Under the pieces are notes generated by a model. It made no database searches. It was not told where the DNA came from and saw only the letters and a program-made list of their open reading frames with translations. A program made the translations under genes and the position numbers. A DNA stretch of 64,000 nucleotides from the NCBI GenBank assembly GCA_030390025.1, contig CM059431.1:97094001-97158000 (forward strand), read 5' to 3'. Positions 6,340 through 44,323 of this stretch are shown piece by piece. Origin of the DNA: Squalus acanthias (lineage: Eukaryota). Every line of letters begins with the position of its first letter. Within the stretch, counting starts at the first letter, position 1.

Positions 6340-7560
6340 CTTCTCGCATGCACCTCTTGCTTTCCCGCCTTCCTGTCACCACACTCCACCCTTGTGCTTT
6401 CCTCATTTCACACACCCAAGAAATGCATCCTGCCCAGCCAGTGGTTGACCAAGAAGAGGGTGAGGAGAGTGAATAATAATAATAATAATAATAATGATAA
6501 GAAGAAAACACCATCACTTGATTTGACACTCCCAGCCACCAACTCCTCAAGGTCGACCAGCAAGGTCATTTGCAGTGTCCCCCACTGAAATTCAGCAACC
6601 TTCCACCAGCCATGCTGCAGCCACCGGGGTAGCACTGCGTGACATCAGTAGGAAAGGCAAAAGGCACAAAGAAGACAGTCACTAAGGGAACGCATAAGGG
6701 TGATGAGTTGATGTCTTGATGTCATATTGGATGGATAGGTGTATAAAGTTGGATTGGAAAGTTTGCTTTGTGGTGGATTTTATTTCAGCATTGTGGTCAC
6801 GAAGACGCTGTGATGGTCAGTAACAGAGGGAAGGTAAGGTGTGGGACAAATGTTGCAAGGGGAATTGGGGTTGTGGTCACTGGTACTGCAGGTGGATCAT
6901 TCCACCCCGGATATCCTGGCCAGAAAGGAGCTCTCTGGGTTACATCCTTCCTTCTGCTTCCTCCTCTTCTGCTTCTTCCTCTTTCCTCTACGAGCGGATG
7001 CTGTAAATCTGAAATAAAAGCATAAAATGCTGGAAATACTCAGCAGGTCAGGCAGCTACTTGGCCTGAGTCGTGAACTCTGTTTCTCTCTCCATGGATGT
7101 TGCCTGACCTGCTGAGTATTTGCAGCATTTTCTGTCTTCTCAGAGGCCTTCCTTTACCATTCGATGCCTTGCAAGCATCCAGCAGCACTCACCTGCACAC
7201 TTAAAAAAACTTTTAACATGTATTTCGTAAGCCACGACTTCAATAAAATCAAATAAATCCAGTCCAAAGGCTTAAATGCAAACTTACCTGAAAGATGTGT
7301 GTGTCTCTTTAAGAGGTCCTGACAGCACCTCTGTAAGTCTGTTGAACGCAGTGCTGCCGGACCTCAGAAAATGGCAGATGCCACGGGACCTGCCACCAGC
7401 TGATGAAAGAGTGGCGGCCACCGTCTTTTCGCTACATTTTCATGGTAATGGGTGGCGTAAAGCACCCGAATTTTTAGAGTGCAATGAAAGCTGTGAGGTC
7501 AGACTGGGGATTGTTGAGCGGCGTCCTGTGGGGGGCAGTTCTGGGCGCTTCTTGTTTCGA
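6340..7560 (+). mobile_element. Degenerate Harbinger relic
   Basis: 6592-6625 cagcaaccttccaccagccatgctgcagccac matches the Myb-gene 3' end at 60095-60127; pyrimidine run 6945-6990 parallels the transposase acidic tail at 60615-60652; no TIRs found. Confidence 0.55.
6994..7138. mobile_element. Penelope-type terminal fragment, inverted pair
   Basis: aaaatgctggaaatactcagcaggtcaggcagc faces its reverse complement; homologous to 22031-22160 and 43432-43782. Confidence 0.65.
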
Positions 7561-22030: not shown

Positions 22031-22160
22031 AAAAGTAAAATACTGCGGATGCTGGAAATCTGAAATAAAAACAGAAAATGCTGGAAATACTCAGCAGGTC
22101 AGGCAGCATCTGTGGAGAGAGAAACAGAGTTAATGTTTCAGGTCGATGACCCTTCGTCAG
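22031..22160 (-). mobile_element. Penelope-type short insertion with a 12-bp TSD
   Basis: AACCCTTTGTAG at 22019-22030 and 22161-22172; contains the hammerhead core. Confidence 0.8.
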
Positions 22161-22164
22161 AACC
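22128..22164 (-). ncRNA. Minimal type I hammerhead ribozyme motif
   Basis: Minus strand GGUU-CUGACGA-AGGGUCAUCGACCU-GAAA-CA-UU^AACU: both core boxes, stem II and stem I present; helix III reads ACAU instead of ACGU (CpG decay). Confidence 0.7.
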
Positions 22165-22850
22165 CTTTGTAGTCTTGTCTTGGACTTTGGAAGCTTTAAG
22201 AAGGTGCGAATGTGTTGAATATGTTCATTTCAATTTAAAATTGTGTACCTAGAAGAAGGAGAAACTTTGTGATTTGCATTTTAAGTTAAAGACACTGCTG
22301 TGGATATATTTTGACTGGGACAGCTTGTACAGCAAACTGTAAATCAGAGCCAGTTTGTTTTACAAAAGATAAGCTTCAGCCTTGAAGTTACAGTTTCCAT
22401 GGTTTCTGATCGTGTCTGGTAGAAAATGAATCTGGACTTTTGAAAGTATTTTTCTGAAAGCACACATTTTTAATCGGATTACAAAAAAATGATTTGCTAT
22501 TGTTTTTTGTGGTTTAAATTAAAAATGTGTGATTTTATTTTAAATCAATTTGAATGTTTACAAAGCACTGTCTTCTTAATTTGGTTACTGCAAGTCCGAG
22601 ACGCCCACTCGCAAAGTTTTTGACAAGTAAGAAGTAATCAGTAATTATAAATTGGGTTGAAGAGAAAAAGTAAATTAGTCTGTGATGAAATAAAGAAAGG
22701 AGAAAATGAAAGATTCTGTCCCTTTCCTACTTTCAGTGTAGTGTCCCTTAAAAAACACTTGTATGAATGTTTCAAAGCTACAAGCTGAGGGAAGCTCTGC
22801 CCTCTTTTTCCTGTAAAATAGTCATGATTTGGTTAAATGTCAAAAACTAA

Positions 22851-42292: not shown

Positions 42293-43431
42293 TCACAAGC
42301 TGTACAATCAAACAAATACCAGTATAATGGGGCAACTGTGTAATCGTGCAGCGGTTCCCAGGTGTGACTCTCTAATGGACGTTCTCTTGCCCTACTGCTT
42401 TGATGTATCTGAAAGTATCATTATGGGTTTATTTTCTCAAATCTGTTCAGTCAGAGAGGCCAGTGTCCCAGAGGCTCTGCATGTCCAGGCTCCACAGCCA
42501 TGTTAATTCCTGATGCCCGACTATGTTGTCACTGACTGATTTCTGTCACTAGTCGAGGGTTTGTTACGGACATGAAGCCAGTTTCATGCTGCCCTGGAAT
42601 CTGCGAGGTTTTCTCACGGCGTGTATTTTGTTAGTTGTAGGTGACGAATTGTTCCCTTCAGTCGCGGAGTGAGTGGGGGAGTCGCTGTTCAGCCAGGTGT
42701 TGGACAGAGAAGTCACAGCAGCTGCAAACAATGGCACTGAGGTGAACGAATGTAAGGAGACATTTACAATGGAACAGAAAAATAAACACATACATTCAGT
42801 AAACAGAAACCTCATTTACGTTGTCCTGACAACGGCCACTGAAGAGAAACATTTATTAAAGTTGAATATCCCAGATCAGTAAGAGTGATTCCCGAGTTTA
42901 TTAAATTCAACAAAATCCAAGCATGCAGGAGCTGTCTCACATTAATTGAAAATCAACATCAGCAGCTGCTCTAAACCCAACGACTGATCCTGCTCCAAAT
43001 CCTTCGCATCCACAATACCGCAAGTCCCTTCAAATTTTAACATTGAATTGGCTAAAATTCATTTGTAATTCTTGAATTAGGTCTTGAATTCCTCTCTCCC
43101 CACACAGCATTCTATACTCCAAACTGGTGCCACACTTGGTCAGATTCTGCCTTAATGCCAAGGACTCTCACCTCACCTCTGGAATTCAGCTCTTGTGTCC
43201 ATGTTTGGACCAAGGCTGTAATGCGGTCTGGAGCCGAGTGGTCCTGCCAGAACCCAAACTGAGCATAGGTGAGCAGGTTATTGAAGAGCAAGTGTCGCTT
43301 GATAGCACTGTCGACAGCACTTTCCATCACTACACTGATGATTGGGTGCAAGCTGATGGGGTGGTAATTGGCTGGGCTGGATTTTTCCTGCTTTTTGTGG
43401 ACAGGACATACCTGGGCAATTTTACACATTG

Positions 43432-43782
43432 AAACAACAACAGAAAACGCTGGAAAACTCAGCAAGCCAGGCAACATCCGTGGAGAGAGAAACAGAGTTT
43501 GTTTCTTAACCTGTCCTATTACCATCTCGTCTTGCCTTGAGCATCTCTTAATGTCTCTACTTACCATAGACCACCCCTTTTGTTCTTTTATTCCTCCCCC
43601 CAGCCTCCCCCTTGCTTTTTTATCTGTTTCATTTCCTGCTTTTTTCTCAGTTCTGACGAAGGGTTTCGACCTGAACCGTTAACTCTGTTTCTCTCTCCAC
43701 GGATGTTGCCTGGCCTGCTGAGTTTTCCAGCGTTTTCTGTTGTTGTTTCAATTTTCCAGCATCCGCAGTATTTTGCTATCGT
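43432..43782 (+). mobile_element. Penelope-type insertion with an inverted 5' copy
   Basis: TSD AATTTT(A/G)CACATTG at 43418-43431 and 43783-43796; inverted repeat 43429-43499 vs 43681-43751. Confidence 0.8.
43649..43684 (+). ncRNA. Minimal hammerhead ribozyme motif, one core mismatch
   Basis: AGUU-CUGACGA-A-GGGU(UUCG)ACCU-GAAC-CG-UU^AACU; GAAC replaces GAAA. Confidence 0.65.
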
Positions 43783-44049
43783 AATTTTGCACATTGTCGG
43801 GTAGATGCCTTGTTGTAGCTGTATTGGAACAGCTTAGCTAAGGCTATGGCTAGTTTTTGAGCACAGGTCTTCAGCACGACAGCCAAGATATTGTTGGGGC
43901 CCACAGTCTTTGCTATATCCAATGAACTCAGCTGTTTCTTGATGTCACAAGTAGTGAATCAAATAGTTTGAAGACTGGCATCTGTGATGATGGGGAACTC
44001 AGGAGGAGGCCTAGATGGATCATCCACTTGGCACTTCTGGCTGAAGATG

Positions 44050-44323
44050 GTGTGGGTTAGGTTGATTTGGCTATGATAAATTGACCCTTAGTGTTAGGGG
44101 GGATTAAATATGTGGGGTTATGGGGATAGGATGGGATATGTTAGGGGGAATTAAATACGTGGGGTTACGGGGGTAGGGTGGGATATGTGTACTGTGGGGA
44201 TTAAAGCAGGGACAGGGTACTGGATTTGGATGATCAGCCATGATCGTATTGAATGGCGGAGCAGGCTCGACGGGCCGAATGGCCTACTCCTGCTCCTAGA
44301 TTCTATGTTTCTATGTTTCTATG
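44050..44323 (+). mobile_element. SINE fragment with CR1-type tail (V-SINE/HE1-like)
   Basis: gggttaggttgatttggctatgataaattgaccc segment followed by a CR1 3' UTR and tttctatg tail. Confidence 0.5.

What the first reader, a model, noticed from the sequence alone, without database searches (positions are those of the whole stretch)
43418..43796. Inverted terminal copy ends precisely at the hammerhead cut site
Seen: the predicted cleavage is 43680|43681, and the ~70-bp inverted copy (43429-43499) corresponds to 43681-43751, ending at that same base; the whole unit is bounded by a 14-bp TSD with one mismatch. Established: Penelope insertions often carry inverted pseudo-LTR pieces. Inference: the ribozyme-generated RNA 5' end sets where reverse transcription stops, a genomic footprint of in vivo self-cleavage in a vertebrate.
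Basis: partly seen in the sequence, partly recalled or inferred. Interest (0 to 1): 0.7.

Follow-up and report, generated by a model that had tools for sequence, protein, structure and literature searches.

The report
Penelope-like insertion with inverted arm
This is a young 351-base insertion of a small hammerhead-bearing Penelope-like retroelement with the extra head-to-head arm usual for such elements, and the arm ending at the ribozyme's predicted cut site looks more like coincidence than a record of self-cleavage.

Summary
A 72-nt inverted repeat (43428-43499 / 43681-43752, 71 of 72) lies inside one insertion. The insertion is flanked by a 14-bp target-site duplication, which uninterrupted copies of the host repeat confirm. 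The inner end of the arm abuts the predicted minimal-hammerhead cut (43680|43681), but a shared TT leaves it ambiguous over 43681-43683.

It is a 5'-truncated copy of a ~406-nt non-autonomous Penelope-like element. It has the family's 33-nt tail on one arm and a tail-less inverted arm. This matches the published pattern for such elements: two internal reverse-transcription start sites and priming from both nicked strands.

I hand-curated 206 unique copies from the same genome:
- Element 5' ends pile up about 30 nt upstream of the cut (43646-43653-equivalent, 38 pieces).
- Inverted-arm ends are not enriched at the cut (3 seen, 4 expected).
- Only one other copy ends at that exact base.
- The only copy with the same junction ends 10 nt short.

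A weak hint remains. Simple truncated copies cluster at 43679-43683-equivalent (5 seen, 1.2 expected). Four of these retain the two bases upstream of the cut.

Verdict: a known kind, and the coincidence is unproven.

The parts
43418..43431 (+). Left copy of the 14-bp target-site duplication (AATTTTACACATTG). Its last 4 nt (ATTG) also match the outer end of the inverted arm, which is microhomology at the top-strand priming site.
   Evidence: Uninterrupted host-repeat copies L216-L218 read through cacattg|tcgg.
43428..43499 (-). Inverted arm. It is the reverse complement of element positions 301-373 (43681-43752), has no tail, and runs from the proximal RT start site to the predicted cut.
   Evidence: 72 nt, 99%; maps to ref 301-373. 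One search found no other 72/72 match among the 40 places scored.
43498..43785 (+). Forward 5'-truncated copy (element positions about 119-406 of about 406). It is very young: it differs from the majority of the 30 closest loci (of L001-L030, itself among them) in only 2 alignment columns.
43653..43680 (+). Minimal hammerhead core. It consists of CTGACGA, an extra A, helix II GGGT-TTCG-ACCT, then GAAC (GAAA in most copies) and CGTT. Positions 15.1-16.1 (ACGT in intact copies) form a palindrome that can pair only between two RNAs.
   Evidence: 81 of 130 whole-motif copies keep CTGANGA, GAAA and CGTT. Features compared with passages of PMC4209133. No Rfam match.
43680..43681 (+). Predicted self-cleavage site (after U17).
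   Evidence: Inferred from the core numbering; not tested experimentally. It agrees with the 26-nt distance from the ATG inside the CUGAUGA box reported for the Anolis element.
43681..43752 (+). Right arm of the inverted repeat: the segment from the cut to the proximal (tail-less) RT start site.
   Evidence: 26 of 40 rows for L033-L060 end at ref 357-379.
43753..43785 (+). 33-nt 'tail', the segment between the proximal and distal RT start sites. Its last 3 nt (AAT) overlap the TSD.
   Evidence: 14 of 40 rows end at ref 402-410.
43783..43796 (+). Right copy of the TSD (AATTTTGCACATTG).
43112..43417 (-). Host repeat into which the element inserted: a decayed, reverse-transcriptase-like (LINE-type) sequence that continues at 43797 onwards.
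   Evidence: RVT_1, E=7e-4, below Pfam's cut-off; 2087 first-look candidates in the genome.

Best explanation
The unit at 43432-43782 is one retrotransposition event of a short non-autonomous Penelope-like element (about 406 nt full length, made of pseudo-LTR sequence with a minimal hammerhead plus the first ~130 nt downstream that hold the RT start sites). A Penelope-type RT/GIY-YIG enzyme supplied in trans nicked both strands 14 bp apart.

The proposed steps are:
1. The bottom strand primed cDNA at the distal start site, giving the arm with the 33-nt tail. Its junction with the target shares AAT.
2. The top strand primed a second cDNA at the proximal start site, giving the tail-less arm. Its junction shares ATTG/CAAU.
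3. The first cDNA stopped at element position about 119. The second stopped after 70-72 nt, at 43681-43683-equivalent.
4. The two same-sense cDNAs were joined at their 3' ends over a 2-nt overlap, giving a head-to-head structure inside one TSD.

Shown here: the anatomy, the TSD, the two classes of 3' ends, and how common inverted partners are in the family. Inferred: the order of events and the enzyme.

The second cDNA stopped next to the predicted hammerhead cut. This is most simply one draw from a broad spread of stop points, not a mark of a cleaved template.
For: Anatomy and TSD.

Family structure:
- Full length is about 406 nt, with a shared 5' end.
- There are two classes of 3' ends (14 tailed and 26 tail-less among 40 rows).
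- Inverted partners are frequent: 5 of 28 loci, leaving out the window's own locus and L002 (which ranked high by matching the query's inverted arm), and about 44 inverted or fold-back events by my hand count over.
- As a rule one arm is tailed and the other tail-less (L044, L057, L073; L136 and a C18 locus).

Published mechanism:
- The Anolis Penelope-like enzyme starts reverse transcription at two adjacent internal sites that delimit the tail, and it cleaves and extends both strands. Its hammerhead mutants do not change insertion, and no RNA-seq reads begin or end at the cut (PMC11167929, main text read).
- An inverted 5'-truncated copy at the 5' end and a one-sided 30-40-bp tail are described as typical (PMC8557442, passages).

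Census of 206 unique copies (267 pieces before removing duplicates; curated; tests):
- 38 ends fall at 43646-43653-equivalent.
- 24 fall in the 24 positions 43654-43677.
- 9 besides the window's fall in 43678-43683 (6.0 expected, P=0.15).
- Exact base: 1 other copy (1.0 expected).
- Inverted arms within 2 nt of the cut: 3 (4.0 expected).

The junction query found only the window and L002 (2 of 40 scored), and L002's arm ends 10 nt short.

Fifteen of 130 whole-motif copies belong to a lineage with CCGAYGA, that is U4 changed to C. A lineage with an altered core has therefore still multiplied.
Against: - The arm does end at the predicted cut as far as the sequence can tell.
- The 2-nt overlap at the junction suggests real polymerisation ends, not trimmed flaps.
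- Simple (non-inverted) truncated copies are over-represented at 43679-43683-equivalent: L024, L060, L118, L205 and the L153/155/156 event. That is 5 against 1.19 expected, P=0.007.
- A fold-back junction whose forward arm starts at 43681-43685-equivalent recurs at five different sites. Two of these have their own TSDs.
- My census is small, hand-curated, and drawn from the best-scoring young copies. It is not a random sample, and ends downstream of 43681 are under-sampled.
- I did not look for an autonomous Penelope-like element in this genome, so the enzyme is inferred.
Confidence: 0.72

Rival explanations
1. The template of the inverted arm was an RNA already cut by the hammerhead, so the top-strand cDNA ran off a 5' end at 43681-equivalent. 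The arm would then be a footprint of self-cleavage in vivo.
For: - The end coincides with the predicted cut.
- The junction has only 2 nt of overlap, as expected for two true cDNA ends.
- Simple truncated copies cluster at 43679-43683-equivalent (5 against 1.19 expected).
- The AACTC-junction fold-back recurs at 5 sites. It needs a cDNA 3' end, or a trimmed flap, within 43681-43685-equivalent.
- The strong pile-up of both simple ends and fold-back centres at 43646-43653-equivalent is what one would expect if a recurrent RNA 5' end leaves such marks in this family, though what causes that pile-up is itself unresolved.
Against: - Inverted-arm ends are not enriched at the cut (3 against 4.0 expected).
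- Only one other copy has that exact base as its furthest match.
- Four of the five simple ends keep TT upstream of the cut. L073's arm runs 3 nt past the cut. A cut RNA lacks those bases unless the RT adds them.
- L002, the only copy with the same architecture, ends 10 nt short.
- The forward copy here has an A15.1-to-C core change that L029 shares. The change may therefore already have been in the source RNA.
- A CCGAYGA lineage multiplies.
- For the Anolis element, cleavage is dispensable in vitro and no RNA ends were seen at the site.
- Such minimal hammerheads cleave poorly in vitro and need a second copy.
Confidence: 0.2
2. The window copy and L002 are not independent. A rearranged composite (inverted arm plus forward copy from position about 119) arose once and was copied again, and L002 later lost 8-9 nt between AGAG repeats. 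The breakpoint would then be a single historical accident seen twice.
For: Both have a forward copy starting at TTTGTTTC (position about 118-120) right after an arm ending in ...AGAG. An 8-nt deletion between the two AGAG repeats turns one junction into the other. No third copy with this junction appeared among the 40 places scored.
Against: - Each has its own TSD, and the outer ends of their arms differ by a few bases and overlap their own TSDs, as fresh priming would give.
- The composite has no promoter at its 5' end.
- L002 is only 92% identical to the window copy, while many ordinary copies are 97-99% identical.
- An unrelated simple copy (L034, with its own TSD) also starts at position about 119. 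That position may therefore be a recurrent stop.
Confidence: 0.2
3. The reverse transcriptase stalls at the folded or paired ribozyme (helix I and the intermolecular helix III), not at a cut end. Stops would then scatter over a few bases around the cut.
For: Ends near the cut are spread over 43674-43691-equivalent. They include ends 2-7 nt upstream of it: L073, L111, L120, L169 and the four TT cases. The protein-assisted folding reported for the Anolis ribozyme makes a bound structure plausible.
Against: Taken over all pieces, the density from 43654 to 43691 is flat at about one end per position. There is therefore no clear stall zone (my curation). Folding programs do not predict the ribozyme fold.
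Confidence: 0.1
4. Two separate insertions or a later DNA rearrangement produced the inverted repeat.
For: None specific. Nested insertions are common in this genome, and the host repeat carries other insertions of the family nearby (L003 and L017).
Against: One 14-bp TSD brackets the whole unit and there is no internal TSD. The inverted piece lacks the element's true 3' end and starts at the known internal start site. The arms differ at 1 of 72 positions.
Confidence: 0.03

Closest known systems
Complex insertions of Penelope-like elements: partial tandems, an inverted 5'-truncated copy at the 5' end, and a one-sided 30-40-bp tail (Craig et al. 2021, PMC8557442; passages read)
   Same: An inverted 5'-truncated partner directly at the 5' end, a tail (33 nt) on one arm only, a hammerhead in the repeat, heavy 5' truncation, and a TSD.
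   Different: There is no ORF here. The element is a ~406-nt non-autonomous derivative, and the inverted piece is only 72 nt.
Poseidon (PAc) of Anolis carolinensis in vitro (Frangieh et al. 2024, PMC11167929; main text read)
   Same: - Two RT start sites a tail-length apart and downstream of the hammerhead. In PAc RT starts at 111-118 nt of the ORF and the cut is at 26; here the starts lie about 66-73 and about 101-106 nt after the cut.
- Both strands can prime.
- The cut lies 26 nt from the ATG inside CUGAUGA.
- The bottom-strand nick falls after ...AAAATT, fitting the reported ATT preference.
   Different: Here both junctions show 3-4 nt of target/template overlap, whereas PAc was reported to start without homology. 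The host class is different. Nothing here was tested biochemically.
Minimal hammerheads (min-HHR) of metazoan Penelope-like elements (Cervera and de la Pena 2014, PMC4209133; passages read)
   Same: The CUGANGA box, an extra base between positions 9 and 10.1, GAAA, a palindromic 15.2-16.2 (C-G), and no own helix III, so only a dimer can be active. Pairs of motifs on opposite strands 100-700 bp apart were already noted there.
   Different: Position 10.1-11.1 would be G-U here, not the usual G-C (my reading of the sequence). The window copy has A15.1 changed to C. Cleavage was not tested.
Non-LTR retrozymes, non-autonomous derivatives of Penelope-like elements in vertebrates (Li, Clavereau and Pollet 2026 preprint; abstract and passages; Cervera and de la Pena 2020, PMC7229834, search listing only)
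   Same: A short hammerhead-bearing non-coding element related to pseudo-LTRs. One cartilaginous fish in that survey has such families, with a mean consensus length of 363 bp.
   Different: Those are defined by tandem arrays that can give circular RNAs. In the loci I fetched, the copies are dispersed singles or head-to-head pairs, and I did not look for tandem arrays. The preprint's supplements are closed, so I could not check whether this family is listed.
Twin priming of human LINE-1 (Ostertag and Kazazian 2001; recalled, not read here)
   Same: A second priming event on the other strand gives an inverted 5' part inside one TSD, with microhomology at the junctions.
   Different: LINE-1 twin priming inverts a different, upstream part of one RNA. 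Here the same 72 nt are present twice, and both arms begin at defined internal start sites.

Membership tests
Penelope-like element insertion (non-autonomous derivative) | Hammerhead motif inside the terminal repeat | tested here: met
   Core at 43653-43680. 81 of 130 whole-motif family copies keep CTGANGA, GAAA and CGTT.
Penelope-like element insertion (non-autonomous derivative) | Optional 30-40-bp tail, present at one end of the unit | tested here: met
   The 33-nt tail lies at 43753-43785 on the forward arm only. The family shows two classes of 3' ends, 14 tailed and 26 tail-less among 40 rows.
Penelope-like element insertion (non-autonomous derivative) | Inverted 5'-truncated copy adjoining the 5' end | tested here: met
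   and about 44 such events by hand count.
Penelope-like element insertion (non-autonomous derivative) | ORF with telomerase-like RT and GIY-YIG endonuclease (for an autonomous member) | tested here: not met
   The ~406-nt element has only an 8-codon frame from the ATG in CTGATGA (natural reference copy printed). It is non-autonomous. I did not search the genome for an autonomous partner.
Penelope-like element insertion (non-autonomous derivative) | Target-site duplication and an AT-rich (ATT) nick site | tested here: met
   The 14-bp TSD was checked against empty sites. The bottom-strand nick falls after AAAATT. TSDs of 7-14 bp were seen at L034, L040, L044, L057, L060, L073 and L136. ATT is not universal at the other end.
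Minimal hammerhead ribozyme of Penelope-like elements | Conserved core C3 U4 G5 A6 N7 G8 A9 ... G12 A13 A14 A15.1 ... U16.1 H17 | tested here: not met
   The family meets it. This copy has C at 15.1 (43676), a change shared with L029. By recalled mutational data such a change should cripple cleavage.
Minimal hammerhead ribozyme of Penelope-like elements | Extra base between 9 and 10.1; palindromic 15.2-16.2; no own helix III | tested here: met
   The sequence shows A after GA, and C-G at 15.2-16.2, with ACGT (AACGTT) in intact copies.
Minimal hammerhead ribozyme of Penelope-like elements | Self-cleavage at the predicted bond | not testable with these tools
   No RNA reads were available, only contigs. 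Rfam models and energy folding do not recognise the motif.
Non-LTR retrozyme | Tandem head-to-tail repeats, each with a hammerhead, able to give a circular RNA | not tested
   No tandem array was seen in the loci fetched, but I made no search for arrays.

The most novel reading that the evidence does not exclude
A minority of this family's template RNAs are cut by the minimal hammerhead in vivo. cDNAs that run off the cut end, sometimes with one or two added bases, would then account for three things: the cluster of simple 5' ends at 43679-43683-equivalent, the fold-back junction that recurs at five sites through the AACTC/GAGTT overlap, and the window's own inverted arm. Genome sequence alone would then record in vivo activity of a Penelope-type hammerhead, whose function is still open.
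Probability: 0.2. Interest if true: 0.6.

Novelty: new member of a known kind. Interest (0 to 1): 0.33.

Why it matters
What hammerheads do for Penelope-like elements is unsettled. The published in vitro work found cleavage dispensable and saw no RNA ends at the site. If insertion end points recorded cut RNAs, any assembled genome could be read for ribozyme activity in vivo.

My small census shows that such a test is feasible and what it gives here. There is no spike at the cut for inverted arms, a modest and ambiguous excess for simple ends, and a much stronger unexplained pile-up about 30 nt upstream at the 5' edge of helix I.

As it stands, the window's structure is an ordinary, tidy example of how these elements integrate.

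Tried and rejected
- **Rfam.** Nothing at gathering threshold in the whole window. No hammerhead was found even at E up to 10 around the motif, in this copy or in an intact natural copy.
- **Energy folding.** Folding an intact copy as monomer and as dimer did not return the hammerhead fold. This is uninformative for a minimal, dimer-dependent motif.
- **RNA evidence.** No RNA holder was listed. The four runs laid are contigs of uncertain kind, and no places where molecules begin or end could be called. This says nothing about expression or cleavage.
- **Older subfamily.** A search with this very abundant subfamily's segment returned nothing because common words are skipped. Old copies entered only as bystanders.
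- **Automatic end calling.** Gapped extension and ungapped extension over- or under-extend at T-runs and by chance matches. The counts near the cut are therefore hand-curated from the printed flanks.
- **Alternative junction.** I tested whether the junction formed through the GAAAC/GTTTC complementarity, with the arm running on to the GAAAC of the core. The predicted sequence does not match the observed one, so I rejected it.
- **One or two template RNAs.** The arms share a 4-T run (found in 6 rows besides the window's forward copy, among them its own inverted arm, of the 31 rows aligned: the window's inverted arm and 30 of the loci L001-L030) but differ at a site that also separates two sublineages. 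No other 72/72 match to the left arm exists among the 40 places scored. Either reading costs one step, so this is undecided.
- **Earlier scan notes.** There was nothing at this place. Notes from other genomes describe similar single coincidences and fold-backs.
Full report
**What is there**

The window holds a 72-nt inverted repeat, 43428-43499 against 43681-43752, with 71 of 72 positions complementary and 181 nt between the arms. Immediately upstream of the right arm lies CTGACGA-A-GGGTTTCGACCT-GAAC-CGTT (43653-43680). Read with hammerhead numbering, this puts U17 at 43680 and the cut at 43680|43681. In this copy A15.1 is C.

The whole unit is bracketed by AATTTTACACATTG (43418-43431) and AATTTTGCACATTG (43783-43796). 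The flanks belong to a very abundant host repeat (2087 first-look candidates) with weak reverse-transcriptase similarity on the minus strand. Three uninterrupted copies of that repeat read straight through ...cacattg|tcgg.... The TSD and the insertion limits (43432-43782) are therefore firm.

The junction reads CAGAG-TTT-GTTTC, and the T's fit both partners, so the arm ends at 43681, 43682 or 43683.

**What the element is**

The window's own assembly (3.7 Gb) holds thousands of relatives (2837 first-look candidates, 40 scored). Aligning flanks of the fetched loci shows that the forward copy here is 5'-truncated. The family extends about 118 nt further upstream to a shared 5' end, giving a full length near 406 nt. 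As a ruler I used one natural copy, L016:1383-1792. In the region of interest its numbering equals the window coordinate minus 43380.

The element has no ORF beyond eight codons starting at the ATG inside CTGATGA.

Copies end at two places. Of the 40 BLAST rows for loci L033-L060, 26 end at ref 357-379 and 14 at ref 402-410. This is the 30-40-bp 'tail' of Penelope-like elements.

Inverted partners are common. They occur in 5 of the 28 loci, leaving out the window's own locus and L002, which ranked high by matching the query's inverted arm. By my hand count there are about 44 inverted or fold-back events over all loci. As a rule one arm carries the tail and the other does not. Examples with their own TSDs are L044, L057 and L073, and L136 and a C18 locus.

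**How this fits what is published**

- I read the main text of Frangieh et al. 2024 (PMC11167929). The Anolis enzyme starts reverse transcription at two adjacent internal sites whose distance is the tail. It cleaves and extends both DNA strands and prefers ATT. Its hammerhead cuts 26 nt after the start codon. Hammerhead mutants do not change insertion, and no public RNA-seq reads begin or end at the cut.
- Passages of Craig et al. 2021 (PMC8557442) describe the inverted 5'-truncated copy at the 5' end and the one-sided tail as typical. They call the hammerhead's function unclear.
- Passages of Cervera and de la Pena 2014 (PMC4209133) define the minimal hammerhead: no own helix III, an extra base after position 9, a palindromic 15.2-16.2, and activity only as a dimer, which is low in vitro. 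They also mention motif pairs on opposite strands.
- A 2026 preprint (abstract and passages) reports non-autonomous derivatives of such elements in vertebrates, including one cartilaginous fish.

The window's unit thus matches a known kind feature by feature.

**Most likely mechanism**

Both strands were nicked 14 bp apart. The bottom strand ends in ...AAAATT, and the top strand ends in ...CATTG.

1. The bottom strand primed at the distal start site. The element's terminal AAT overlaps the TSD.
2. The top strand primed at the proximal start site. ATTG overlaps CAAU at 43749-43752.
3. The first cDNA reached element position about 119. The second stopped after 70-72 nt.
4. Both cDNAs are of the same sense, so they can only pair at chance inverted matches. 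Here two bases (TT/AA) joined their 3' ends.

These steps are inferred from the anatomy and from the in vitro work. None was observed here.

**Does the cut site set the stop?**

I sampled copies that hold the segment just downstream of the cut, so that whatever lies upstream could not bias the choice. The queries were 66-81-nt natural segments, each returning 40 scored places. I read 85-100 nt upstream of each. Counting bystander copies in the 3-kb loci and the window, this gave 267 pieces, 206 of them unique. Of these, 106 run on for at least 78 nt.

For the rest I curated the last matching base by eye, because automatic extension misbehaves at T-runs. The results, in window-equivalent coordinates, are:

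| Interval | Ends | Notes |
|---|---|---|
| 43646-43653 (from ctcag to ctgacg) | 38 | 11 simple truncated insertions; the rest are fold-back arms |
| 43654-43677 (24 positions) | 24 | 5 simple |
| 43678-43683 | 9 besides the window's own | listed below |

The nine ends in 43678-43683 are:
- L073 at 43678 (inverted, followed by about 55 nt of filler).
- L024, L060, L118 and L205 at 43679 (simple).
- L136 at 43681-43686 (inverted, with AACTC shared by both partners).
- L044 and an old copy in L047 at 43683 (inverted).
- One event present three times by segmental duplication (L153/155/156) at 43683 (simple).

Tests against the neighbouring rate:

| Comparison | Seen | Expected | P |
|---|---|---|---|
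| All pieces, 43678-43683 | 9 | 6.0 | 0.15 |
| Exact base 43681 | 1 | 1.0 | 0.63 |
| Inverted arms within 2 nt of the cut | 3 | 4.0 | 0.76 |
| Upstream pile-up, 43646-43653 | 38 | 8 | about 1e-14 |

The junction itself (81-nt query) recurs only in L002. There the arm ends at ...GGAGAGAG, 10 nt short of the cut.

Among simple insertions alone, ends within 2 nt of the cut number 5 against 1.19 expected (P=0.007). The figure is 4, with P=0.03, if L118 and L205 count once, because they share 16 similar bases upstream. That shared stretch resembles the window's own TSD and may be a preferred target.

All four ends at 43679 are preceded by TT, the two bases that a cut RNA would lack. By chance this has a probability of 1.5e-5, or 3e-4 given the roughly 13% of other junctions that end in TT.

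Three explanations remain open. Those templates may have been uncut. The enzyme may add two A's at a run-off end. Or it may stall at the paired ribozyme.

A second hint is a fold-back junction that joins the tailed arm at ref 336 to a forward arm starting at 43681-43685-equivalent through the 5-nt overlap AACTC/GAGTT.
- It occurs at five sites with 95-100% identity across the junction (5 of 40 scored).
- All five have different flanks.
- Two have verified TSDs of their own.

This would follow from cDNAs ending at the cut. It would follow equally from joining two same-sense cDNAs at the longest inverted match available, with flaps trimmed.

**What speaks against it beyond the census**

- The forward copy's A15.1-to-C change is shared with L029. 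It may have been in the source RNA, although a chance recurrence cannot be excluded.
- Fifteen of 130 whole-motif copies belong to a lineage with CCGAYGA, that is U4 changed to C. A lineage with an altered core has therefore multiplied. That such changes cripple cleavage is recalled from the classical mutational work, not checked here.
- I found no paper that maps insertion or inversion end points of these elements to the hammerhead cut. This rests on searches, judged from listings, abstract openings and the passages read.
- Earlier notes of this scan on other genomes report single coincidences of the same sort and similar fold-backs. I used them as leads only.

**Verdict**

The structure is a clean, young example of a known integration pattern of a non-autonomous Penelope-like element. 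The coincidence with the cut site is real but not shown to be more than one draw from a broad spread of stop points. I put the ribozyme-end reading for this copy at about 0.2.

**Limits**

- The sample is small and drawn from the best-scoring young copies of four sequence variants plus bystanders.
- Ends downstream of 43681 are under-sampled.
- The counts are hand-curated.
- No RNA data could be used.

Noticed in passing
window 43646-43653 (equivalent positions in loci L015-L212): There is a strong pile-up of element 5' ends and fold-back centres at ...ttttttctcAGttCTGA. It holds 38 pieces where about 8 would be expected, including 11 simple insertions. The site is the 5' edge of helix I. From recall, it looks both like an initiator (TCAGTTC) and like a 3' splice site (pyrimidine run plus CAG). 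It could be a transcription start, an RT stop, or joining at the TCAG/CTGA inverted match. The cause is unexplained.
   Followed up: partly
loci L012, L017, L024-L026, L039, L048, L181, L184, L190, L191, L193, L196, L200: A sublineage carries CCGAYGA instead of CTGAYGA (core U4 changed to C), in 15 of 130 whole-motif copies. It has still multiplied, which suggests that hammerhead activity is not needed for spread.
   Followed up: partly
L136 (G000:C26:13561230-13561470) and four other sites: The same fold-back junction occurs at five different insertion sites. It joins a tailed arm ending at ref 336 to a tail-less arm from ref 301-305 through a shared AACTC. Two sites have verified TSDs of their own. 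The junction is either formed repeatedly or is a copied composite.
   Followed up: partly
window 22034-22166 (-): An older, 5'-truncated copy of a related and far more abundant subfamily. It starts at (g)ttCTGACGA, has an intact GAAA and a tail, and is flanked by the TSD CTACAAAGGGTT.
   Followed up: partly
window 7000-7135: An old head-to-head pair of the same family. One arm ends at about ref 318, and the forward piece starts at about ref 290 and has no tail.
   Followed up: no
L001 / L002 / L034: Three insertions with different TSDs have a forward copy starting at the same place (TTTGTTTC, element position about 118-120). This may be a recurrent 5' end. L034 was found with a query that contained this stretch, so its frequency is unknown.
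   Followed up: no
window 43330-43431 and 43797-43860; L003, L017: The host repeat (LINE-like) carries independent insertions of the same family within a few tens of bases of each other in different copies. This suggests a preferred target there.
   Followed up: no
L118/L219 and L205/L220: Two loci with otherwise unrelated flanks share about 16 similar bases, GAATTTTT(CCC/GGG)CCATT, directly upstream of the element's start. The stretch resembles the window's TSD (AATTTTACACATT). It may be a nick-site preference with ATT on both strands.
   Followed up: partly
window 44092-44185: Two tandem copies of a 47-nt G-rich unit (89% alike), just downstream of the host repeat.
   Followed up: no
L057, L073: Some inverted pairs hold 55-75 nt of unrelated filler between the arms. 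In L057 this includes a (TA)n run.
   Followed up: no
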